DNA of 64,000 nucleotides from an uncultured Chitinophaga sp. (GTDB lineage Bacteria > Bacteroidota > Bacteroidia > Chitinophagales > Chitinophagaceae): assembly GCF_902168175.1 (NCBI RefSeq), contig NZ_CABHOU010000103.1, positions 545-64,544 on the forward strand, read 5' to 3'. The position numbers were made by a program, and so were the translations under genes. The notes below the pieces were generated by a model, which searched no databases, had not been told where the DNA came from, and was given only the letters and a program-made list of their open reading frames with translations. Shown here piece after piece: positions 36,239 through 63,383 of the stretch. Positions within the stretch are counted from its first letter, which is position 1. Each line of letters opens with the position of its first letter.

Positions 36239-37552
36239 TTACGGACGGATTTTGCCGGTCACTAGTATCTTGGCAATACGTAACTGGTCCATGGCAGTTA
36301 CTTTTAACTGCAGGTTGCCCAGTTTTACGGTGTCGCCGATGTCGGGTATTTTACCCAGCTTTTCGAGGATAAAGCCACCGAGGGTAACATAACCACCGGT
36401 TAATTTGGCTTTAGCCGGATCGATAGTGACATGCAGCAGTTCCAGGAATTCGATGAAGGGCATTTGTGCATCTACGAGCATGCTGCCATCTTCGTATTTC
36501 ACCACTTCGTATTCAAACTCGTTGGTTTCCGATGAAATATTGCCTACCAGCGCGTCCACGATGTCGTTAATGGTCACCAGACCTTTAATGCTGCCAAATT
36601 CGTCTACTACCATCGCCTGGTAAACCTTCTCCTTCTGGAAAAGTTCGAGTATCTGGTAAGTGCGGTTATACTGCGTAACCACCAGCATTTTTTTGCTGAT
36701 CGCTTTCAGGTCCTTGAACTTCTCCGCAAGGTTTTCGCTGATCAGATCTTTGGAATATACGAATGCGAAAGAGGCGTCGATATCATCGGTGGCCAGTGGA
36801 TAGATCGTATGTTTGCGCGTAAGTACTTTTTGCATATTCACATCAGGCGCATCGTTCACATCCAGCCAAACGATCTCGTTCCTCGGTGTCATCAGCGACT
36901 GTACATGGCGGTCGGCCAGGTTAAATACGTTTTGGATGAGTGATTTTTCCGTTTCTTCAATTACACCGCCCTGGTGACTTTCAGAGATGATGACCCGCAG
37001 TTCTTCTTCCGAATGTATATCCCCATGCTCGCCGGCGGGTTTTATACCGATGGCTTTCAGGATGAAGTTGGCAAAGCTGTTTAATATCCAGATGAAGGGG
37101 CGGAACACGATGAAGAAAATTTTCAGGGGTAACGCCACTGCAAAGGTGGTAGCCACCGGTTTGCGAATGGCCAGCGATTTGGGCGCAAGTTCTCCGAAAA
37201 CGATGTGTAATATGGTGATCACGATGAATGCCACCGGCAAAGCAGCTTTATGGGCAACTTCCGGCGTCAGGTTCATGTTGAGGAAGTTGAACAGGTCCAT
37301 AATAAGTACCGTCATTACATCTTCACCCACCCAGCCTAAGCCCAGCGAAGCCAGCGTAATACCCAGTTGCGTAGCGGCCAGGTAACCGTCCAGGTTGTTT
37401 ACAATACTTTTGGCAATGCCGGTAACCGCATTGCTTCGACCAGTGTTTACCTCAATTTGAGAAGTACGCACCTTTACGATCGCGAACTCCGCCGCTACAA
37501 AAAATCCATTCAGTATTACAAGGAAAAGTGTTAGAAGTATGTCCCAGGTCAT
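36239..37552 (-). CDS. Hemolysin-family/CorC-like protein (CNNM-DUF21 TM domain, CBS pair, CorC_HlyC domain)
   Basis: LNGFFVAAEFAIVKVR, YLAATQLGITLASLGLGW, GELAPKSLA, MTPRNEI, VVDEFGSIKGLVTINDI, TLGGFILEKLGKIP. Confidence 0.93.
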   Translation of the reverse strand: MTWDILLTLFLVILNGFFVAAEFAIVKVRTSQIEVNTGRSNAVTGIAKSIVNNLDGYLAATQLGITLASLGLGWVGEDVMTVLIMDLFNFLNMNLTPEVAHKAALPVAFIVITILHIVFGELAPKSLAIRKPVATTFAVALPLKIFFIVFRPFIWILNSFANFILKAIGIKPAGEHGDIHSEEELRVIISESHQGGVIEETEKSLIQNVFNLADRHVQSLMTPRNEIVWLDVNDAPDVNMQKVLTRKHTIYPLATDDIDASFAFVYSKDLISENLAEKFKDLKAISKKMLVVTQYNRTYQILELFQKEKVYQAMVVDEFGSIKGLVTINDIVDALVGNISSETNEFEYEVVKYEDGSMLVDAQMPFIEFLELLHVTIDPAKAKLTGGYVTLGGFILEKLGKIPDIGDTVKLGNLQLKVTAMDQLRIAKILVTGKIRP

Positions 37553-54869: not shown

Positions 54870-57800
54870 TCAAAACTGTGCTCTCAGACCTACGGTGATC
54901 GTTCTTGCATAAGGATACCTGGCTGCTGAATTACCTAACTCCGGGTCCCACGTTTTGAACTTGGAGAAAGTAAGCAGGTTGGTGCCCGCAGCGTAACAAT
55001 GCAGACTGCTGATGCCTGTTTTGTTCATAGCCGGTGTGATGATCTGATAGCCGATAGAAGCCTGTTTCAAACGCATGAAACTACCGTCTTTTAACCACCA
55101 GGTGCTGCGAACGTAGTTGTTATCTTCTGAGTTGGCCATGCTGAGTCTCGGATACTCAACGTCCTGGCTTGGGTTTTCTTCCGTCCACCTGTTTTTAACA
55201 TTGGCGATCACGTTGGCAGGATACTGACCGATACCGGCGAAAGGCACAACACCCACACCGGCAGAACTGCCGTCGTTCATGTTAATTTGATCACCATTGG
55301 CCATGATGCCCACATCTGCAATACCAGAGAAAATAGCCGAGAGGTCGAAGCGGCGGTAGGTAACATTGAACCCGTAACCGTAAGACCATGTAGGGAAGGT
55401 GGATTTGCCGAGGTAAGTCTGATCATTGGCGTTAATAACACCGTCATTGTTCAGGTCTTCGTATTTAATGTCGCCTGGTTTTACAGGGCGCATTTGCTCC
55501 GGACTTTTATCGATGTCGTTCTGGTCTGCGAAGAGGCCGAGGCTTTTGTAACCGTACAATTCAGACCATACCCTGTTTTCAGGCTGCTGGTAATCGTACA
55601 GGTACTTAGGACTATCTCTGAAAAGCACTTTGTTTTTCGCGTAGGTAACATTACCGAACAAACGGATAGTTCCATCTTCGCCAAACTTGTCGTTATATTC
55701 CAGGGTACCATCAATACCCCTGTTCTGCATTCTGCCCAAATTCGCAAAGGAGGCGAGTTCTGTATAGCCACCGATGGAAGAAATGGAATTTCTCTGGATC
55801 AGGATAGCCGATCTTTTGTCCTGGAACACGTCTACGATCAGGCTGAACTTATTCAGAAGCCCAACTTCGAGGCCAATGTTCGTTTTCGCTGATTTTTCCC
55901 ATGTAAGGTTGTCAGCACCTATCACTTGTTCTGTTATACCCTCGTACCAGGTGGGAGAGTACCCCAGTTGTGTACCGCCGCCAGTACCCACGTAGGTAAG
56001 ATAGCCAAACCGGTCGCCTGCAATCTGGTCGTTACCGGTAAGTCCCCAGGAGGCTCTTACTTTAAGCAGGTTGATGGTGGAAGTAAAAGGCGTAAAGAAG
56101 TCTTCTTTCGATATTACCCAACCGGCAGATACTGCAGGGAAGTAACCCCAGCGATTGCCTTTTTCAAAGTTCTCTGAACCGGTAGCACCGAGGTTGGCCT
56201 CAGCCATGTACTTGTCATTGTAAGCATATGTTACACGACCGGCGAAGCCCTGGTTGCGGAAGGGAATAGCATTTTTCAGCGTGCCGGCGGCACCGATAAG
56301 ACGGTTACGGGCAGATGCTACGAGTAAGCCACCTACCGTGTGTTTGCCGAAGTTGCGATCGTAGTTGATGTTACCTTCGAGGTACATTACCCGTTCGCCC
56401 TGCGAGCTATATTCGTAACCCAGGTAAGTGCTGCCGTTCCTTACACGTTCTAACGCCAGTGTGCCGTCCGGGTTGCGGGAACCGGCGTACCAAAGATCGT
56501 TGAGACCCTTGCGGCTGTTGTTAAACTCGCCATAGGTATCAAACGAAAAACGGCCTGTAGCGCTAAGTCCATTTATAATACCATCGAGGCGCTGGTTAAG
56601 GGAAAGGATGGATTGTACGGAGGGACGGAACTCAGTGCTGTAACCTGCGTTCTGTACGAGGTTGAAAGGATTGTTACCGCCGTTTGCGCGCGGGCCTGCC
56701 CATATATTGTCACCGTATTTTATAGGGTAGGCAACCGGGTTGGTAGCAAAGGAATTGTACCAGATAGTGCTCGCAGAATTGCCTGGATAACGGCTGTTCA
56801 CCAGCATCGCCGCCAGGTTTAATGATAATATCGTAGACTTGGTAATGTTGAGGTCAATATTGCTTCTGAAGTCGTAACGTTTGAAGTTCAGGTTGGGATT
56901 GTAGCCGTTTACGTCTTTATCTACTTTATACTGGCCTTCCTGGTTAAAGAAGGACATAGACACGTAATAACGCATGGCTTCTCCGCCACCGCTGATATTT
57001 ACGTTCGCGTTGGTCATAGAAGCCCAGTCGCGGTAAATAGCATCGATCCAGTTTACGTTTGGATAGAGGTAAGGGTCCAGACCGCTGGCCGTTTTAGCGA
57101 TTGTTTCGTCCGAATACACAGGTGTTTCACCATTATTCGTGCGCGCTTCGTTTAAGAGCTGCATGTAACTTACGCCATCCAGCATTTTCGGTAATTTTGT
57201 AAGGCCGGTTACGCCCGATTCCACCTTAGCAGATACTTTGGCTTTGCCGGCAATCCCCTTTTTTGTGGTGATGATCAATACGCCGTTAGCGCCTTTGGCA
57301 CCGAATATGGCAGTAGCAGAGGCATCTTTCAGTAAGGAAATGCTCTGGATATCTTCCGCATCAATGTTGTTAAACGCGCCCCCGTAAGTGCTGTTCACAT
57401 CCTCACGCTGTACACCATCTACAATGATCAACGGACTGCGGTTACCGGTAAATGTGCCTACACCACGGATCGTAAATTCCGGGTTATCATATCCAGGCTC
57501 ACCACCGCCGCTCTGCACCGAAATCACACCGGCCACTTTACCGGCCAGTGCATTTGTGAGCGAACGTACCGGTGTTTGCATATCGGCCATATTTACGGTG
57601 GATACGGCGCCTGTAACGGTTACTTTCTTTTGGGCACCAAAACCTACTACCACGATCTCATCCAGTTTGTCAACCTTTTCAGTTAACGCGATTTTGAGCG
57701 TTTTGCGGTCGGTTACGGCTACCTGCTCCGGGTTCATCCCCATCATATTAAAGTTGAGGATTTCACCTTTGTCGGCATCCAGCGAGAATACACCCAATTC

Positions 57801-58307
57801 ATCGGTTACGGTGCCACGGGATGTACCGGGAATCGAAATGGTAACGCCGGGTAATGGCGCACCTTTGGTGTCCATCACCTGACCCTTTACAGCACGGCTT
57901 TGTGTAACTGTTGCTGGCTGTTGGGGTGGGGCAGACTGTGTTGGTGCCGCGTCTTTTTTGTCGAGTACAATGCGGTTGCTTTTTACGTCAAAACGGAGGT
58001 CTTTGCCTTTTAATACGAAAGTAAGCACCTCTTCAAGTTTGGCTTTCTTAAAGTTGACGTCTACTTTTTCGGCATCGTTTAACAGTTGGTTACTGTACAC
58101 CAGGGTAAGCCCTGTTTGTTTTTTAATGGCCTGGAAAACTTCCAGGAGAGAAATGTTTTTGCCCGAGATGGAAACGGGTAGCTGCAAGGTTGGCGTATTT
58201 ACTTGTGCCTGGGCCGATTGGAAGAGCATCGGTAGCAGGCAGCCGATCAGCAGGACATAAAGCGCCCTTCGCATAGCCGGCTGGCAATGGCGTACACATT
58301 TTCGCAT
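54870..58307 (-). CDS. SusC-family TonB-dependent transporter with STN domain
   Basis: STN-like N-terminus, [43 protein letters not shown], C-terminal Phe. Confidence 0.95.
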   Translation of the reverse strand: [1145 protein letters not shown]

Positions 58308-58376
58308 GATGGAATATTATTTAAGACTTTTTACGATAACAGCAGCATTTGTTGGTTGATAATGCCTTTCAACATA

Positions 58377-58404
58377 ACTACAACGCAAGAAATGGAATGG
58401 GTGA
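58377..58404 (-). promoter_or_regulatory. Putative ECF-sigma promoter of susC (TCACCC-N14-GTTGTAGT)
   Basis: Same hexamer/octamer and identical 14-nt spacing as the element upstream of fecR (59589-59616). Confidence 0.6.
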
Positions 58405-58456
58405 CGGGTATTAAAAAAAATATTTTACCCAATAAAAAAGTATGGATGAAGATCAG

Positions 58457-59578
58457 TTACTGGAGATATATCTCGTTGTTTTCGAAGCGGTAAGAAATGC
58501 TGGCCGTGGTTTTCAGATCGGCTAAAAACTCTTTTAGTTTGTCGCGCTCCATGAGTCCCGTTACTGTAATGTGCGAAAATTTAGCTTTGTCTACATGAAA
58601 GCTGGCTCCATAAAACCGCCCTGCAACATCTGCCAGTTCAGGCAGCGACATACGGTGATAATAATAGATACCTTTCATCCATGACAGTACTTCATCTTCA
58701 TCGAAGGCGGTGGAGCTAAACCCTTTTGCTGCCGTAAAGCCAGCTTGCATACCGGGCGTCAGCTTTAGTTGCTGGCCGCCCGCATTTTTCGTTATTACAC
58801 TGCCATTTATCAGCGCCGTATTAACAGTGCCGCTTTCGTAGGTATTAATGTTAAAGGAGGTGCCCAATACCTGTACTTCAGTAAGCGGGGTACGGACTAT
58901 AAAAGGCTGCGAGGCATTTTGCGCCACTTTGAAAAAGGCTTCTCCAGATACGGTTACCTGCCTGTTCCCTTTGCCAAAATGGAAAGGGAAAGAGAGGGTG
59001 GAGGCGGCGTTGAGCCATACCTCGGTGCCATCGCTCAGCACCAGGTGATAGTTTTCGCCTGCCGGTACCTGTAAGGTATTAACAGTGGTGTCTTCAGAGG
59101 TGTAGGCCAGGGTATTATTTCCTGTATTTAAAGTAGCATTATTCAGGGGGATGGCCGCACTATCGTTCAGTGTGATCGTTTGTCCGTTCGCCAGTTTCAG
59201 TTCTACCGGCTGTTTAGTTACCCTGATACCGGCAAGTGTACCCGCATTTTTAGGTGCTGGTTTCAGCAGGAAATACGCGCCAGAGGCCAGAAGCAGTAAT
59301 ACAGCAGCGGCCGGCAGTGCGCGTTTAAGGGTGAATGTCTTTTTAGGTGCGGGCTGCAGTTGGGCTCTTACTTTAGCCAGCGCCTCACCAGTATCGATGT
59401 TGGCGGCAAACGTGCCGGCCTTCATCGCCAGTGCGTCCTGTTCCAGTTTTTCCCAGGCAGCTTTAAATGCCAGGTCGGTAGCCAGCTTCTTTTCTATATG
59501 GGCCTCTTCGCTGGCAGACAACTGCCCGCCAAGCTTTTCTATAAATAATTGAAATATGTCGTCGTTCAGTGGTTCCAT
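58457..59578 (-). CDS. FecR-family anti-sigma factor
   Basis: TM helix, VPAGENYHLVLSDGTEVWLNAASTLSFP, GEAFFKV, VLGTSFNINTY, SWMKG. Confidence 0.95.
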   Translation of the reverse strand: MEPLNDDIFQLFIEKLGGQLSASEEAHIEKKLATDLAFKAAWEKLEQDALAMKAGTFAANIDTGEALAKVRAQLQPAPKKTFTLKRALPAAAVLLLLASGAYFLLKPAPKNAGTLAGIRVTKQPVELKLANGQTITLNDSAAIPLNNATLNTGNNTLAYTSEDTTVNTLQVPAGENYHLVLSDGTEVWLNAASTLSFPFHFGKGNRQVTVSGEAFFKVAQNASQPFIVRTPLTEVQVLGTSFNINTYESGTVNTALINGSVITKNAGGQQLKLTPGMQAGFTAAKGFSSTAFDEDEVLSWMKGIYYYHRMSLPELADVAGRFYGASFHVDKAKFSHITVTGLMERDKLKEFLADLKTTASISYRFENNEIYLQ

Positions 59579-59588
59579 TTGTAACTAT

Positions 59589-59616
59589 ACTACAACTTTT
59601 TGTAGTGATCGGGTTA
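59589..59616 (-). promoter_or_regulatory. Putative ECF-sigma promoter of fecR (TAACCC-N14-GTTGTAGT)
   Basis: Matches the susC-upstream element in sequence and spacing; overlaps the sigma gene stop codon. Confidence 0.55.
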
Positions 59617-60162
59617 ATGTTGCCGGTTATTTTTCATGTTTTGCCGGAGCAATTTCAGGCCCCGCTTGAGGTGCGTCTTAAAAGAATTAACGCTGATACC
59701 CATCTCGTCCGCCGCCTCCTTGTAGCGTTTACCCTGTACATATACCATCTGCACCGCCATCTTTTTCTGTCCGGCCATATCGTTAAGCGTGTGCCTTATC
59801 TGACCATAGTAATCAGGATCGGCTTCGCCGGTAGCAGCGGCTTGCTCGGTTTCCTGGGTTTGCGACCAGGCAGCCTCCTTGTCCAGCAGCAGTTTTTGCT
59901 TTTTGAGGTGGTTAAGGCAGCGGTTTTTCACAGCCATGTGTAAATAACCTTTTATCTCCCCGTTAAACTGGAAATACAGCTGCTTGTCCCATATATCTAT
60001 AAAAAAAGACTGCACCAGGTCCTGCGCTTCCTCTTCGTTCTGCAGGAACCAAAAGGCATTGAGGCACAATAGTTTGTAATATTTCAGGAATAGCGCATCA
60101 TACGCCGTAAGGTCGCCGGTTTTGAGCCGCTGGATCAGGTCCGTGTCCTCGTATTGATGCAT
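59614..60162 (-). CDS. ECF RNA polymerase sigma-70 factor
   Basis: AYDALFLKYYKLL, EAQDLVQSFF..IW, YLHMAVKNRCLNHLK, YKEAADEMGISVNSFKTHLKRGLKLLR. Confidence 0.93.
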   Translation of the reverse strand: MHQYEDTDLIQRLKTGDLTAYDALFLKYYKLLCLNAFWFLQNEEEAQDLVQSFFIDIWDKQLYFQFNGEIKGYLHMAVKNRCLNHLKKQKLLLDKEAAWSQTQETEQAAATGEADPDYYGQIRHTLNDMAGQKKMAVQMVYVQGKRYKEAADEMGISVNSFKTHLKRGLKLLRQNMKNNRQH

Positions 60163-60267
60163 TTATACAATTAATACCGTCTTTGTGGGCGGTTGATTAC
60201 TGGTTGATTGGTGGAATAGTACCTTCTTCGAACATCCGGTTTCAAGATAGAGAATATTGTTTGAAAT

Positions 60268-60297
60268 AAAAAAGACCGCCAGTTACAGGCGGCCTCT
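60268..60297 (-). terminator. Intrinsic terminator on the minus strand, upstream of the ECF sigma gene
   Basis: Minus strand GGCCGCC-TGTAACT-GGCGGTC followed by TTTTTT. Confidence 0.75.
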
Positions 60298-60400
60298 CTT
60301 CTTTAACCCAAAAAAGCATAGATTATGAGAAGGTACATTATAATAATTTCTATAGGTACAGGCAGGTTTTCAAAAAGATATGGTCAAAATTTGCACGCTG
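60268..60400 (-). ncRNA. Candidate small RNA ending at the 60268 terminator (5' end unknown)
   Basis: No protein gene ends here. The segment before the terminator reads CAUAAUCUAUGCUUUUUUGGGUUAAAG, the reverse complement of a translation-start-like sequence. Confidence 0.35.
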
Positions 60401-60486
60401 AAAAATCTAAATTGACGCGTACATTTCTCTATTAAGTGTTTTAGATTTTGGCTGATAACACATCAAACATTAAACCCCAAAAAAAT

Positions 60487-60988
60487 TCGTTCACAGGTAA
60501 GAGATAAATAGCCCTCTCAAAAAAAGAACAGATGATAAAATGGAATATCGTTCACAGGTATAGAATAAATAGCAACTCTTAAAAGCATAGAATATGGCAG
60601 GCTTGTTTATTAATTGTATACCACCGGCACGGGATATACAACCGGTTTAAACTTGCAGAAAATGTAATTCGGCTTAATCCTGAAAACGGTATCATAGGCA
60701 GCGAAAAAGTAACGTTCCATGTTTAGTTTTTTAATCAGTTTTTAAAAAGTTATTTCCAATAGGTGTTAAAAAGTTAAAATAGGATCGTCACAGGACGTAA
60801 TAAATAGCTTGATCGTTTGCGCTCGTTTTAATGTGCCCCGGGCATTGTATTTGTAAAATGACTCGTTTGTTTTAAAATAAACGGGCGGAACTTTTCTCTT
60901 CGACATCTCCTGTTTTCACTGTTCCTGCCCGTTTATGTACACCACCATGTTTCTCGTACATTCAAATCAGCGGCAAGGGATAAATAGC
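60487..60988. repeat. Dispersed motif TCGT(T)CACAGG-N-ATAAATAGC, three full copies and one partial
   Basis: 60487-60512, 60548-60573, 60785-60808, and partial GATAAATAGC at 60979-60988. Confidence 0.8.
60610..60720 (-). CDS. Small ORF, 36 aa (MERYFFAAYDTVFRIKPNYIFCKFKPVVYPVPVVYN)
   Basis: ATG preceded by an A-rich Bacteroidetes-type initiation region (TTAAAAAACTAAAC-ATG); below the ORF-track length cutoff. Confidence 0.4.
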   Translation of the reverse strand: MERYFFAAYDTVFRIKPNYIFCKFKPVVYPVPVVYN

Positions 60989-61130
60989 CTATCTGTTTGC
61001 TCATGCTTCATTTGTCTTATGACTGTTGAAGGTTTTCTTCTCTCATAACAGCTGTAGGTTCTTCGAAGGATATGGACAAATATTCGTTTCACTGTTTCCC
61101 AATCAGACTTATGCATATAATAATTTCTTT

Positions 61131-61658
61131 TTATCGTGTTGCCAGTTCCTGCGTCCAGAAGTAACTGTAGCGGCCTATGCCTGTTTCAGTAACCTTTGCG
61201 TTCATTAGTGCTTTGCAGTGCGTGGGGCTTTTCAGCCAGCCAGCAATCACCTCCTGTTCAGTAATATTGCCGGCCGCAATGTTTTCGTAGTATGTTTTCC
61301 AGTTGTAACCCAGGGCTTTGATCCTGGCACCCGCATCGCTACCATTTTTGCCGGTGTGGCTGATGTAGTTGCTGTCGCTCATCTCTTTACTGTGTAACCA
61401 GGCTGCTTTCTCTAACCGCTGGCTCCATTTTACCGGTGTTACAGCAGGCATTGTTTCGCTTCCGCAGTTGCAGCCTTTGCTTCGAGCATCATTGATCAGC
61501 GCCAACATCACATCTCTGTTTAATGTATTGGTATAGGAAAAAACAGAATCTTTACCGAGGGCCGAAGCGTTTTCTACGGTTATTTCTGTCAGCGGCTCTT
61601 TTGAACACGAAGCCATCAGGCAGATTATCGGAATTAAGAACGTCAGGCGGAATTTCAT
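61131..61658 (-). CDS. CAP (SCP/PR-1) domain lipoprotein
   Basis: Lipobox ASC, LINDARSKGCNCG, WSQRLEKAAWLHSKEM, HTG..GS, ENIAAG, GWLKSPTHCKALM, YFWTQEL. Confidence 0.92.
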   Translation of the reverse strand: MKFRLTFLIPIICLMASCSKEPLTEITVENASALGKDSVFSYTNTLNRDVMLALINDARSKGCNCGSETMPAVTPVKWSQRLEKAAWLHSKEMSDSNYISHTGKNGSDAGARIKALGYNWKTYYENIAAGNITEQEVIAGWLKSPTHCKALMNAKVTETGIGRYSYFWTQELATR

Positions 61659-61794
61659 TTTTTATTTGGATATGGTCAAAGCCTCGTTTTGGGTAGATGA
61701 TGTTGCGGGCACTTTCCAGGTTACTTCAGTTTTTCATTCACCCCGCTTATCCATCAATCTGAAACAAAGGTATACCCGCCGCAGGCCGTAAAGA

Positions 61795-61897
61795 ATGATG
61801 GCCATCACCAAAAATGATGAGTGTCATCTTCACACGTTCGGTGTATTTACATAGAAATGTAGTGTGGGTAAGGGTTTGGGAAGCTGACGGCCGTCAG
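61795..61897. promoter_or_regulatory. Three Fnr/Crp-like boxes TGAY-N4-RTCA
   Basis: TGAT-GGCC-ATCA (61796-61807), TGAT-GAGT-GTCA (61815-61826) and the perfect palindrome CTGAC-GGCC-GTCAG (61884-61897), in the divergent region upstream of the kinase and REC-Crp genes. Confidence 0.5.
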
Positions 61898-62222
61898 TAC
61901 CTGATTTTGGTTAGAAAAAAAGAGTTGCCTTTATGGGGTTAAATCAGCGAGTAATTGATGAAGAAGATAATTTACTTATCTTTCAATATCATTTAATGGC
62001 AACCGGTGATCATTTTTAGGTGATTTTAACCTGTAACCTCATCCAGGAAGATTCGCGCTAACCAAACCCCGATGTGTTTGTGCCTTATTGCCTCACTCCG
62101 GCGGATTAACGGTTGCTCTAAGTACTTACTATGGCAGGAGGGGAGTTTTCCCGAAAACATCGTACTCCCTCACTGTCGCAATACCGGACCCAAACCTGTT
62201 TTACCATATTTTCGGCTGTTGT

Positions 62223-63383
62223 ATGTATTATTCGAAGATTGATCCTGGCACTGATTTCCACTTGTCTGTTTTTCAGACTGCTATAGAAAAACTTCCGGCA
62301 CTGGTGGCTATCCGCGAATTTCCGGAGGGCACGCTTGTGTTCCTGAACGATAAAGGGGCCGCCATGTTGGGCGTATCCGGTCCGGAAGAGGCGGAAGCGC
62401 TATTGGCAAAAAACGAGATGGGGGCCACCGACGCTTTTGTACCAACGTCCGGCAGCCTGCGGAAATGGGAGAGTGCCAGCGGCGAATTCTTCTATAGCCA
62501 TTACGAGCAGGCGCCGCTTACATTCAATAATAAAGATTACCTGTTGATACGCCTCTCTGCCCCGCTGGCCGACCATGTAAACAAAGACATCGAGCAAATG
62601 GTGCAACAGCGTACGGACAGGCTGCAGCATGCACTGGAGGCGATGCAATCGGCCCGGGACGAGCTGAATGTGAAGCTGGATAAGGAAAAGGACCTGGGTG
62701 AACTGAAATCCCGCTTCGTGTCCATGGCTTCCCACGAGTTCCGCACACCGCTCAGCACTATTCTTTCCTCCGCCTACCTGGCCAAACAGTACAATGCCGA
62801 AGAAGATCAGCATAAAAGAAATAAACATATCGACCGGATTGTTGCCTCAGTGAACTTCCTGACGGATATCCTGAACGACTTCCTCTCGCTGGGTAAAATT
62901 GAAGAAGGCAAAGTGGTGGTACGGCCAGTGCTGTTCGATGTACGGGAGAGTATTAATAAAATGATACAGGAGGCCCAGGGAATTGTAAAACCTAACCAGG
63001 AAATCAGCTATAAACATGAGGGCTGGCCTGATGTAATGCTCGATCCGTCGCTGTTACGGCATATTATACTTAACCTCATCGGTAATGCAGTGAAGTTCAG
63101 TACCAGGGAAAACGCGCAAATACAGGTATTGTCGCACACCGACTCCTATGGCCTTACGCTTAAGGTGCGGGATAATGGTATTGGTATGAGCCCTGAAGAC
63201 CAGGCTCACCTGTTTGAACGCTTCTTCCGGGGCGGCAACGCCGGCAATATCCAGGGTACGGGCCTGGGATTACACATCGTAAGCAAGTACACCGAGTTAA
63301 TGAAGGGCATTATTACCTGTCAAAGCGAATTGGACGTTGGCACGACTTTTACCATCATCTTTCCCCCCGTTACCGAATGTTAA
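62223..63383 (+). CDS. Cytoplasmic sensor histidine kinase (PAS-like N-terminus, coiled coil, HisKA, HATPase)
   Basis: H-box FVSMASHEFRTPLSTI, NLIGNAVKFS, DNGIGM, LFERFFR, GTGLGLHIV; no TM segment. The ATG at 62223 is preferred over the track's 62088 start. Confidence 0.9.
   Translation: MYYSKIDPGTDFHLSVFQTAIEKLPALVAIREFPEGTLVFLNDKGAAMLGVSGPEEAEALLAKNEMGATDAFVPTSGSLRKWESASGEFFYSHYEQAPLTFNNKDYLLIRLSAPLADHVNKDIEQMVQQRTDRLQHALEAMQSARDELNVKLDKEKDLGELKSRFVSMASHEFRTPLSTILSSAYLAKQYNAEEDQHKRNKHIDRIVASVNFLTDILNDFLSLGKIEEGKVVVRPVLFDVRESINKMIQEAQGIVKPNQEISYKHEGWPDVMLDPSLLRHIILNLIGNAVKFSTRENAQIQVLSHTDSYGLTLKVRDNGIGMSPEDQAHLFERFFRGGNAGNIQGTGLGLHIVSKYTELMKGIITCQSELDVGTTFTIIFPPVTEC

What the first reader, a model, noticed from the sequence alone, without database searches (positions are those of the whole stretch)
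60487..60988. Reiterated 26-nt motif in a 970-bp ORF-poor gap: possible regulatory RNA cluster
Seen: TCGTTCACAGGTA-agag-ATAAATAGC (60487), TCGTTCACAGGTA-taga-ATAAATAGC (60548), TCGT-CACAGG-acgta-ATAAATAGC (60785) and partial GATAAATAGC (60979). All have the same orientation, with conserved ends and a variable middle. They interleave with two other repeat families, a hairpin, a terminator and a small ORF, in an otherwise gene-dense window. Inference: same-strand, non-palindromic, irregularly spaced copies fit RNA-level modules (a multi-seed sRNA array or a CsrB-like protein sponge) better than a dimeric operator or CRISPR. I cannot assign it to any known family, and it is the strongest candidate here for an undescribed system.
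Basis: partly seen in the sequence, partly recalled or inferred. Interest (0 to 1): 0.75.

Follow-up and report, generated by a model that had tools for sequence, protein, structure and literature searches.

The report
Conserved motif in small-RNA/small-gene module
The repeated 26-base motif is real and under selection, but it is one conserved control signal (doubled recently by a 61-base duplication) inside a minus-strand module of a lipoprotein gene, a 36-residue protein gene and a terminator-ended small RNA in a few Chitinophaga species, not a plus-strand array of RNA seeds or a protein sponge.

Summary
TCGTTCACAGGTA-N4-ATAAATAGC occurs at 60487 and 60548, a 1-nt-shorter copy at 60785 and a right-arm remnant at 60979, all on the + strand. 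CACAGG-N4-8-ATAAATAGC occurs nowhere else in the 6.65-Mb genome.

The 970-bp gap is not empty and does not belong to the adjacent PUL. Two other Chitinophaga species (C. horti = G084, and G095) carry the same ~800-bp region next to the same CAP-lipoprotein gene and the same kinase/REC-Crp regulator pair, but without the ECF sigma operon.

Everything supported there reads on the minus strand:
- a CAP terminator hairpin;
- a 36-aa protein gene under purifying selection;
- conserved blocks;
- a hairpin plus intrinsic terminator whose changes keep pairing only on the minus strand.

Those species have one good motif copy (core 17/20 columns invariant, against 44% for the noncoding background). The pair seen here comes from a lineage-specific 61-nt tandem duplication. 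Copies 3 and 4 are old, decayed paralogues.

The motif has no RNA structure on either strand, no Rfam match, and the genome has no CsrA. Its minus-strand reading (GCTATTTAT-N4-TACCTGTGA) is one mismatch from this genome's -7 promoter box.

Best guess (~35%): it is a promoter/operator for the terminal minus-strand small RNA. The close rival (~30%) is a single-stranded RNA recognition or processing site. No strand-resolved RNA data were available.

The parts
60487..60512 (-). Motif copy 1. On the minus strand it reads GCTATTTATCTCTTACCTGTGAACGA. It is the orthologue or duplicate of the single conserved copy in C. horti and G095. It contains the -7-like box TACCTGTG, with a TTTG 18 nt upstream.
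60548..60573 (-). Motif copy 2. It heads the second unit of a 61-nt tandem duplication (60487-60547 / 60548-60608) that is specific to this lineage. Its arms are 22/22 identical to copy 1, while I estimate by eye that the rest of the unit is only ~60% alike.
60785..60808 (-). Motif copy 3, an old paralogue about 65 nt upstream (minus strand) of the 36-aa ORF. Only the left arm (YGTGA..ATCCTATTT) is conserved across species.
60963..60988 (-). Motif copy 4, a decayed paralogue between the CAP stop codon and the CAP terminator hairpin. Only 4/26 columns are invariant across species. G095 keeps a fuller version, TTCACAGGTGAGGGGAATAGCCCTCTC.
60262..60345 (-). 3' domain of a minus-strand RNA: a hairpin, a 21-nt invariant single-stranded block (reverse complement of CCAAAAAAGCATAGATTATGA), then an intrinsic terminator with a U-run. 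The fold z-score is -4.0. Sequence changes in relatives keep pairing only on the minus strand.
60437..60481 (-). Conserved block directly 3' (minus strand) of motif copy 1, reading ...GGGGTTTAATGTTTGATG...TCAGCCAAAATCTAAA. It is 43 nt identical in L035 and 28/34 invariant across three species. A weak conserved hairpin is predicted on the minus strand.
60610..60720 (-). 36-aa protein gene, MERYFFAAYDTVFRIKPNYIFCKFKPVVYPVPVVYN. It is conserved as 36 codons in C. horti, G095 and a JGI relative. Differences fall mainly at third codon positions.
60868..60936 (-). Long hairpin (arms 60877-60891 / 60921-60936) followed on the minus strand by UUUAUUUU. It is the probable intrinsic terminator of the CAP gene. 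The inner stem differs between species with compensatory changes.
61131..61658 (-). CAP/SCP-domain lipoprotein gene that heads the minus-strand module. It is deleted in related strains.
61765..61772 (-). Canonical -7 box TACCTTTG of the CAP promoter. It is shared with the CAP paralogues on contig C92 and conserved in the other two species.

Best explanation
The 26-nt motif is a conserved cis-acting signal inside a minus-strand module found in a small Chitinophaga clade.

The module reads, on the minus strand: CAP-lipoprotein gene, terminator hairpin, 36-aa protein gene, then a ~215-290-nt RNA ending in an intrinsic terminator. In all three species it lies beside a divergent histidine kinase / REC-cNMP-Crp regulator pair.

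On the minus strand the motif is GCTATTTAT-N4-TACCTGTGAACGA. Its invariant core (CTTACCTGTGA plus TTTAT) sits between the 36-aa gene and the conserved terminal RNA.

I propose that it works at the DNA level, as the promoter/operator that starts or gates transcription of that terminal small RNA:
- TACCTGTG would act as a weakened sigma-A -7 box.
- The adjacent conserved GCTATTTAT would be the site of an unidentified regulator.

The multiplicity seen in this genome is secondary. It comes from a 61-nt tandem duplication in this lineage, plus two old, decaying paralogues that stand in front of the other minus-strand units (the 36-aa gene, and the short stretch before the CAP terminator).

Shown: the conservation, uniqueness, duplication history, lack of structure, strand of the neighbouring elements and synteny.
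Inferred: the promoter/operator function, the transcription start and the existence of a regulator.
For: - Motif core 60491-60510 is invariant in 17/20 columns across this genome, C. horti and G095. The noncoding background of the same alignment is 0.44.
- After the 61-nt duplication both copies kept 22/22 arm positions, while I estimate by eye that the rest of the unit is only ~60% alike. The arms are also kept in L035 and X17.
- There is no secondary structure at the motif on either strand, in single folds (z -0.7 to +1.6) or in alifold (about 0 kcal/mol). It is therefore read as sequence, not as shape.
- Neighbouring elements are minus-strand: terminator T2 and its preceding hairpin keep pairing through G-U only on the minus strand, T1 is followed by a U-run on the minus strand, and the 36-aa ORF is coding.
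- This genome's promoters are TTTG-N19-TAnnTTTG(CA), with TACCTTTG among the commonest boxes (tRNA survey).
- The motif's minus strand gives TACCTGTG, a 7/8 match, and copy 1 has TTTG at an 18-nt spacing.
- No exact TAnnTTTG box exists anywhere else on either strand of 60100-61760.
- Each copy stands 5' (minus strand) of a unit with a conserved body and a terminator.
- The motif occurs nowhere else in the genome, as expected of a local control site.
Against: - The mismatch (G at box position 6) hits a position that is T in every exact TAnnTTTG box found in the tRNA survey. It is conserved in all copies and species. Copy 3 in the other species reads TATCCGTG. The invariant core is therefore YGTGA rather than TTTG.
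- C. horti and G095 have no -33 TTTG at the right spacing.
- One-mismatch -7 boxes are common by chance: 33 in 1.75 kb on both strands.
- The distance from the motif to the conserved downstream block varies from 13 to 26 nt.
- Contigs from the two RNA-type runs read straight through the motif. The motif is therefore itself transcribed, probably as the 3'UTR of the 36-aa gene, which suits an RNA-level role equally well.
- No regulator is identified. The syntenic Crp-type regulator seems to have its own palindromic sites elsewhere.
- There are no TSS or strand-specific data.
Confidence: 0.35

Rival explanations
1. RNA-level element on the minus strand. GCUAUUUAU-NN-CUUACCUGUGA would be an unstructured recognition sequence in the long 3'UTR of the 36-aa gene, or in a longer minus-strand RNA. 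It could be bound by an RRM-type RNA-binding protein, cut by an endoribonuclease to release the terminal small RNA, or paired with another RNA.
For: - The motif is unstructured and conserved as sequence.
- It lies inside a region covered without a break by a metatranscriptome contig that ends at the minus-strand terminator, and by a 706-nt contig in a probable RNA run.
- Each copy follows a TIR-like D1 box, which would give a unit of seed plus motif.
- The genome encodes three RRM_1 proteins. In Bacteroides, such a protein binds single-stranded parts of small RNAs (PMC11697453).
Against: - No partner was found. There is no complementary sequence elsewhere in the genome beyond chance.
- The one 13-nt match, to the 5'UTR of the C34 gene, is not conserved in the orthologues.
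- There is no strand-resolved RNA evidence and no mapped processing site.
- Copies 3 and 4 are not conserved, so a repeated RNA module is not required.
Confidence: 0.3
2. A relic without a function of its own. The copies would be leftovers of serial local duplications of a unit consisting of a small-RNA 3' end (D1 box plus terminator). The motif would be the decayed counterpart of the terminator half, conserved only by chance or by linkage to neighbouring functional blocks.
For: - The gap is a patchwork of diverged repeats: D1, D3, D6, and the unit alignments with z of 3.4-4.0.
- The unit 'D1' box + GAGAG + motif' parallels 'D1 box + hairpin/terminator', and both contain CCTGT.
- Copies 3 and 4 are decaying.
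Against: - 17/20 invariant columns against a 0.44 background across three species gives p of about 2e-4 by my binomial estimate.
- The arms are 22/22 identical between the duplicated copies, while I estimate by eye that their flanks are only ~60% alike.
- The arms are retained in at least five lineages.
Confidence: 0.1
3. Operator of the syntenic REC-cNMP-Crp response regulator. The motif carries the CRP-type half-site TGTGA/TCACA, and the regulator gene travels with the module.
For: - The regulator is 87-93% identical and syntenic in all three species.
- Its C-terminal part matches CRP and FNR models.
- TGTGA is invariant in the motif.
Against: - There is no second, inverted half-site at N6 (or N4) spacing in any copy.
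- A conserved palindrome of the expected family type, TGAT-GGCC-ATCA, lies about 43 bp upstream of the predicted CAP start, with a second imperfect one beside it. These are far better candidates for this regulator's sites.
Confidence: 0.08
4. One reading: plus-strand RNA modules, either a multi-seed small-RNA array or a protein sponge.
For: - All copies share one orientation.
- Each ATAAATAGC is followed 15-24 nt later by an ATG in an A-rich context.
- The region appears to be transcribed.
Against: - There is no CsrA in the genome.
- The motif forms no hairpins.
- The plus-strand mini-ORFs and their frames are not conserved. They are 3-42 codons long, and the ATG is lost in C. horti.
- No exact TAnnTTTG box lies on the plus strand in 60100-61760.
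- The probable RNA contig stops ~20 nt short of the minus-strand CAP promoter instead of running on to the plus-strand terminator at 61883-61898.
- All structure-bearing neighbours are minus-strand.
- The ancestral state is one copy, not an array.
Confidence: 0.05
5. Protein-binding sites of a mobile element or recombination system: a transposon end with several transposase sites, integrase arm sites, or iterons.
For: - The copies are several same-orientation ~22-26-bp sites at irregular spacing in AT-rich DNA.
- The left flank of the module differs between species.
- A neighbouring 553-bp stretch carrying the CAP ORF is present or absent among strains.
Against: - There is no inverted partner copy anywhere in the genome.
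- No transposase, integrase or Rep gene was seen among the ORFs beside the module in three genomes.
- The CAP gap in other strains is a deletion that leaves the CAP promoter behind.
- The module is syntenic, not scattered.
Confidence: 0.04

Closest known systems
Bacteroidota sigma-A (sigma-ABfr) promoters, TTTG(-33)-N19-TAnnTTTG(-7)
   Same: The minus-strand reading of the motif contains TACCTGTG, a 7/8 match to the -7 box. TACCTTTG is among the commonest boxes in this genome's tRNA promoters. Copy 1 has TTTG 18 nt upstream. The motif stands 5' of a terminator-ended unit.
   Different: - The deviating base is conserved instead of drifting.
- There is no -33 element in the other species.
- A second conserved half (GCTATTTAT) lies where canonical promoters show no conservation.
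- No start site has been mapped.
FopS/GibS small RNAs of Bacteroides (Rfam RF04319; PMC11697453, PMC7366714)
   Same: - The neighbouring minus-strand element (60262-60345) has the same layout: an unstructured conserved stretch complementary to a translation-initiation-like sequence, followed by an intrinsic terminator.
- It gives the only weak Rfam hits.
- The genome has RRM_1 proteins like RbpB.
   Different: - The hit scores 20 bits against a gathering score of 56, and it does not cover the 26-nt motif at all.
- FopS is a 12-15-copy family restricted to Bacteroidaceae. This element is single-locus and found in only three of 103 Chitinophaga species genomes.
- No sequence homology is established.
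CsrB/RsmZ-type protein sponges
   Same: Repeated, same-strand short motifs in a noncoding stretch.
   Different: - There are 3-4 long copies, not ~10-20 GGA motifs.
- The copies are not presented in hairpin loops.
- There is no CsrA gene in the genome.
CRP/FNR-family operators (TGTGA-N6-TCACA, TTGAT-N4-ATCAA)
   Same: The invariant TGTGA/TCACA pentamer, and a Crp-family regulator encoded in the same conserved neighbourhood.
   Different: Only a single half-site is present, with no dyad. Palindromes of the expected family type lie upstream of the CAP promoter instead.

Membership tests
Rfam FopS (RF04319) or any Rfam family | A covariance-model score at or above the family's gathering score, over the element. 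| tested here: not met
   The best hits in 59000-62500 are all far below threshold: Phe_leader 25 bits against 55, and FopS 20.3 bits against 56. They lie on the terminator at 60264-60336 (minus strand), not on any motif copy.
Rfam FopS (RF04319) | A multicopy paralogous family (12-15 per genome) in Bacteroidaceae (PMC11697453). | tested here: not met
   The gap has no paralogue in its own genome. It was found in 3 of 103 Chitinophaga species genomes and in no other genus sampled.
CsrB-like sponge | The partner protein CsrA/RsmA is encoded in the genome. | tested here: not met
   PF02599 gives no match in the 99.9%-complete genome, while the controls give matches.
CsrB-like sponge | Many binding motifs displayed in hairpin loops. 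| tested here: not met
   There are 3-4 copies. Fold z-scores are -0.7 to +1.6 on both strands. Alifold energy at the motif is about 0.
Sigma-A promoter of Bacteroidota | A -7 box TAnnTTTG. | tested here: inconclusive
   TACCTGTG is a 7/8 match and is conserved in all good copies. The mismatch is at a position that is T in every exact box found in the tRNA survey. Such near-matches are frequent by chance.
Sigma-A promoter of Bacteroidota | A -33 TTTG about 19 nt upstream of the -7 box. | tested here: inconclusive
   It is present at 18 nt for copy 1 here, and also in L035 and X17. Copy 2 has TTTA. It is absent in C. horti and G095.
Sigma-A promoter of Bacteroidota | A primary transcript 5' end a few nt downstream of the box. 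| not testable with these tools
   Only unstranded assembled contigs were available. The raw RNA runs offered held no reads.
CRP/FNR-type operator | Two inverted half-sites at fixed spacing. | tested here: not met
   No second half-site is present in any copy or species. Palindromes of the expected family type are found at 61796-61807 and 61815-61826 instead.
Transposon end / iteron / integrase arm sites | A partner set of sites (inverted for transposon ends) and a cognate transposase, Rep or integrase gene nearby. | tested here: not met
   No further copy exists on either strand genome-wide. The flanking genes I identified are sigma/FecR/SusC, CAP, HK and RR. In the relatives, the gene on the other flank is a 436-442-aa ORF that I did not identify.
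Decayed gene remnant | Residual similarity of the translated gap to a protein family or to neighbouring paralogues. | tested here: not met
   tblastn of three CAP paralogues against the gap gives only noise. The small ORFs have no credible Pfam match (best E = 0.059, 13 bits against a 27-bit cut-off). GC is 31-41%. Instead, one intact 36-aa gene is conserved.

The most novel reading that the evidence does not exclude
The whole 60262-60810 stretch encodes a minus-strand regulatory RNA that is either derived from the 3'UTR of a 36-aa protein gene or independently started. In this reading:
- Two or three TIR-complementary seeds (the D1 boxes) are each followed by the 26-nt motif.
- The motif acts as a docking or processing site for an RRM-type protein.
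- The RNA is a Chitinophaga analogue of the FopS/RbpB circuit, unrelated to it in sequence.
- It is under a REC-Crp two-component system, and it represses translation of sugar-handling genes. One candidate is the ROK kinase whose start region matches the seed over 14 nt.
Probability: 0.12. Interest if true: 0.6.

Novelty: new member of a known kind. Interest (0 to 1): 0.33.

Why it matters
As far as I know, no small RNA or small protein has been characterised in Chitinophaga, and RNA-based control in Bacteroidota outside the gut Bacteroides is largely unknown.

This locus offers a compact, conserved test case in which each part is separately mutable:
- a two-component system with a Crp-type output;
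- a lipoprotein gene;
- a 36-aa protein under purifying selection;
- a terminator-ended RNA with an invariant 21-nt stretch;
- a conserved 20-nt signal (the motif).

C. horti is a sequenced genome that carries the same module, and it could be used for the experiments if a culture is available.

The value of the motif itself is modest. It is a single-locus control element in a narrow clade. The main correction to the original finding is that it is not an RNA array and has no conserved link to the neighbouring PUL.

Tried and rejected
- **Genome-wide repeat or MITE.** Rejected: the motif and the gap are unique in the genome.
- **Decayed second CAP gene or other pseudogene.** Rejected.
- **Structured RNA.** Rejected for the motif: single folds and alifold on both strands and Rfam.
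- **Coding through the motif.** Rejected on either strand: frames differ between copies and species.
- **ECF-sigma promoter of the adjacent operon, or a PUL regulator site.** Rejected, because the region is not next to the sigma operon in C. horti or G095.
- **LytTR or OmpR-type direct repeats and a marbox-type site.** Considered by eye only. The halves are not repeats of each other and the spacings do not fit.
- **Base-pairing targets of the motif.**
  - An 11-13-nt identity with the 5'UTR of a secreted-protein gene (C34:37333) looked promising, but it is absent from both orthologues.
  - For the D1 seed, the ROK-kinase start region matches 14 nt here, but it has an internal mismatch in both other species and a further end mismatch against their D1. 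It remains only a lead.
- **Searches that found nothing.**
  - Two metagenome contigs pattern scans.
  - A genome-contig scan with the sigma factor, which returned only ~62% relatives.
  - Raw RNA runs of the host-labelled organisms, which held no reads.
  - A family-wide search with the 36-aa protein, which gave only noise beyond C. horti.
- **Stranded transcript evidence.** It could not be obtained.
Full report
**1. The observation**

- Copies 1 (60487) and 2 (60548) share 13 + 9 identical flanking bases around a 4-nt centre.
- Copy 3 (60785) lacks one T, and its inner spacer is 1 nt shorter.
- Copy 4 (60979) keeps only GATAAATAGC clearly.

The pattern is far from chance.
- It matches twice in the window, against none in 100 shuffles.
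- CACAGG-N4-8-ATAAATAGC occurs only at these three places in the 6.65-Mb genome.
- ATAAATAGC occurs 88 times genome-wide on both strands, yet four times on one strand within 500 bp here.
- Relaxing to 3-4 mismatches adds only one hit inside a gene and one at the ends of two convergent ORFs.
- The gap as a whole has no paralogue in the genome.

**2. What surrounds it in this genome**

The 968-bp gap (60163-61130) has minus-strand genes on both sides.
- On one side is a CAP/SCP-domain lipoprotein gene (61131-61658, minus strand).
- On the other is an ECF sigma / FecR / STN-SusC operon (from 60162 downward, minus strand).

The gap is AT-rich, at 31-41% GC against 47.7% for the genome. It holds no CAP pseudogene and no credible Pfam-matching ORF.

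A strong intrinsic terminator points along the minus strand at 60262-60298. Together with the hairpin before it, it folds with z = -4.0 on the minus strand, against -1.4 on the plus strand.

Rfam gives nothing. The weak leader and FopS hits (20-25 bits against thresholds of 55-56) sit on that terminator, not on the motif.

**3. Relatives**

No DNA match appeared in a first sample of 40 relatives. Sigma orthologues in the genus are only ~60-67% identical.

Three sources gave close relatives:
- Public runs carry 95-99% strains.
- The exact 36-aa ORF product is on record. It led to an identical set of contigs and to a 98.4% strain, L042.
- A 92%-sigma relative gave L035, which covers 60163-60578 at ~82% DNA identity.

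In L035 the motif arms are 43/44 identical, while the sequence between the copies has many changes. A soil metatranscriptome (X17, ~85% identity) likewise keeps both copies, 62 nt apart.

The decisive step was a genus-wide pattern search. It turned up CACAGGTAAGGGATAAATAGC in G084. G084's contig length (6,309,489 bp) equals that of Chitinophaga horti CP107006. A follow-up BLAST across all 103 genus genomes found the whole region in G084 and G095 only. A search with the invariant 20-mer CAAAAAAGCATAGATTATGA agrees.

**4. The region is a conserved module, and it is not part of the PUL**

In both other species the ~750-800-bp region lies downstream of the orthologous CAP gene (69-73% aa identity). 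Beyond CAP lie the orthologous histidine kinase (73-75%), the REC-cNMP-Crp regulator (87-93%) and, in C. horti, the next gene as well.

The other flank differs. There is no sigma/FecR/SusC operon there. The C. horti sigma orthologue is ~2.3 Mb away. The stretch therefore belongs to the CAP/HK/RR neighbourhood, and the PUL adjacency is specific to this lineage.

**5. Anatomy from the three-species alignment**

Overall, 47% of columns are invariant. They form blocks. Read on the minus strand, the order is:

1. The CAP stop codon.
2. Decayed motif copy 4.
3. A conserved block, then a long hairpin (60877-60936). Its inner stem differs between species with compensating changes, and a U-run follows it. 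This is the likely CAP terminator.
4. Motif copy 3. Only YGTGA..ATCCTATTT is conserved.
5. A 36-aa ORF.
6. A TIR-like box (D1').
7. The well-conserved motif copy.
8. A conserved block, GGGGTTTAATGTTTGATG...TCARCCAAAATCTAAA.
9. The D3 block.
10. A 21-nt invariant stretch (reverse complement of CCAAAAAAGCATAGATTATGA) inside or after a hairpin.
11. Terminator T2.

Three lines of evidence point to the minus strand:
- The ORF is coding. It is 36 codons in all species. C. horti and G095 differ at 15 synonymous-only codons against 2 non-synonymous, and 15 of their 21 base differences are at third positions.
- T2 and the hairpin before it change between species in ways that keep pairing through G-U only on the minus strand.
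- The plus-strand mini-ORFs that follow the motif or the D1 box are not conserved. They are 3 codons long in the other species, against 36-42 here and in L035, and the ATG is lost after the C. horti motif.

**6. The motif itself**

The other two species have one copy where this genome has copies 1 and 2:
- C. horti: ATTCACAGGTAAGGGATAAATAGC.
- G095: TCTCACAGGTAAGGAATAAACAGG.

The 61-nt tandem duplication is therefore specific to the lineage of this genome, L035 and X17.

The core 60491-60510 is invariant in 17/20 columns, against a 0.44 noncoding background. This puts it among the five best-conserved noncoding blocks. Copy 3 scores 0.46 and copy 4 scores 0.15.

No structure involves the motif on either strand. 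It is therefore a sequence-read element under purifying selection. It was ancestrally single, and older paralogues nearby are fading.

Self-alignments show that the gap as a whole is built from diverged repeats of longer units.

**7. Transcription**

Only unstranded assemblies were available.
- In the soil metatranscriptome X17, one contig runs from about 60264 (where T2's U-run ends) through both motif copies. A second contig continues through the ORF to ~60746.
- In run X3 (labelled 'RNA?'), only two parts of the 20-kb stretch examined carry long near-identical contigs: the fecR/susC junction (depth ~3), and a 706-nt contig (depth 6) from 60492 across the CAP-less junction to 61739. Other X3 pieces are short matches of about 40 nt.
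- That contig ends ~20 nt short of where the CAP promoter (TACCTTTG, 61772-61765, minus strand) would start transcription. It does not run on to the plus-strand terminator at 61883-61898.

This fits minus-strand transcription but does not prove it. The raw-read RNA runs offered held no reads.

**8. Mechanism**

A survey of the 53 tRNA genes defines this genome's promoters as TTTG-N19-TAnnTTTG(CA). TACCTTTG and TATCTTTG are the commonest boxes.

The minus strand of the motif contains TACCTGTG, a 7/8 match. Copy 1 (also in L035 and X17) has TTTG 18 nt upstream. No exact box exists anywhere else in 60100-61760.

The motif stands directly 5' of a conserved, terminator-ended stretch. The decayed paralogues stand 5' of the ORF and of the block before the CAP terminator.

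I therefore favour a DNA-level role as promoter/operator of the terminal minus-strand RNA. The conserved GCTATTTAT would be a regulator site.

Weaknesses of this reading:
- The deviating G is itself invariant, and copy 3 elsewhere reads TATCCGTG. The conserved core is really YGTGA.
- There is no -33 element in the other species.
- One-mismatch boxes are common by chance.
- The motif is itself transcribed.

The close rival is an RNA-level recognition or processing site in the ORF's 3'UTR. Three RRM_1 proteins are encoded.

A CsrA sponge is excluded. The syntenic Crp-type regulator more probably binds the conserved TGAT-N4-ATCA palindromes ~43 bp upstream of the CAP start. Searches for base-pairing partners gave only non-conserved matches.

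**9. Comparison and verdict**

In layout, the neighbouring minus-strand RNA resembles the FopS/GibS class of Bacteroides: an unstructured stretch complementary to a start-codon region, followed by a terminator (PMC11697453, PMC7366714). It fails every membership test, and the 26-mer is not part of that resemblance.

The motif is best filed as a new, narrowly distributed member of a known kind, a local cis-regulatory signal. Its exact reader is unresolved.

Its interpretation (plus-strand RNA array or sponge, linked to the PUL) is mostly not supported. Interest is moderate to low for the motif and somewhat higher for the module around it.

Noticed in passing
window 60610-60720 (-): A 36-aa protein gene that matches no Pfam or NCBIfam family: MERYFFAAYDTVFRIKPNYIFCKFKPVVYPVPVVYN. 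It is kept as exactly 36 codons in C. horti, G095 and a JGI metagenome relative. Between C. horti and G095, 15 codons differ synonymously only, against 2 non-synonymous.
   Followed up: yes
window 61141-61693: A 553-bp stretch carrying the CAP lipoprotein ORF and ~25 nt of its leader is missing in close strains (L042, X1, X3). The CAP promoter and most of the 5'UTR remain, so this is a deletion in those strains. The deletion fuses the CAP promoter to the downstream noncoding region. Short TCGT(G/T)TT repeats flank the break.
   Followed up: partly
window 61796-61807 and 61815-61826: A perfect palindrome, TGATGGCCATCA (TGAT-N4-ATCA, FNR/CRP-family type), lies about 43 bp upstream of the predicted CAP transcription start. 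A second, imperfect site, TGATGAGTGTCA, lies beside it. The half-sites (TGAT/ATCA) are kept in three species. These are the likely operators of the neighbouring REC-cNMP-Crp response regulator.
   Followed up: partly
window 60262-60345 (-): A minus-strand RNA 3' domain with a 21-nt stretch that is invariant in three species. The stretch is complementary to an A-rich start-codon region (CCAAAAAAGCATAGATTATGA). In this genome it matches 14 nt around the start codon of a ROK-family sugar kinase (contig C59, ~171918). The match has an internal mismatch in both other species.
   Followed up: partly
window 60608-60620 vs 60164-60176: A 13-nt perfect inverted repeat. The end of the 36-aa ORF (minus-strand RNA UAUACAAUUAAUA) is complementary to the sigma-factor mRNA immediately upstream of its AUG. 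The sigma leader differs in L035, and I could not check covariation.
   Followed up: no
window 61883-61898 (+): A plus-strand terminator-like hairpin, GCTGACGGCCGTCAGT followed by a T-run, lies just upstream of the histidine kinase gene. Its core CTGAC.GC.GTCAG is conserved in three species. It implies some plus-strand transcript ending between the CAP promoter and the kinase.
   Followed up: no
window 62088-63383 (+): The listed kinase ORF starts at a TTG (431 aa), but similarity to the orthologues begins only at residue ~44-46, and their ORFs are 386-395 aa. The true start is probably ~130 nt further downstream.
   Followed up: no
window 54870-60162 vs C. horti L037: The ECF sigma / FecR / SusC operon sits next to the CAP module only in this lineage. 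In C. horti the sigma orthologue (71% aa) lies ~2.3 Mb away, beside a second, divergent sigma/FecR/SusC set.
   Followed up: partly
genome contig C34 ~37308-37335: TTCACAGGTAAGA (13 nt, identical to motif copy 1) lies 11 nt upstream of the start codon of a 191-aa secreted, beta-rich protein gene. It is not conserved upstream of the orthologues in C. horti or G095, so it is probably chance.
   Followed up: yes
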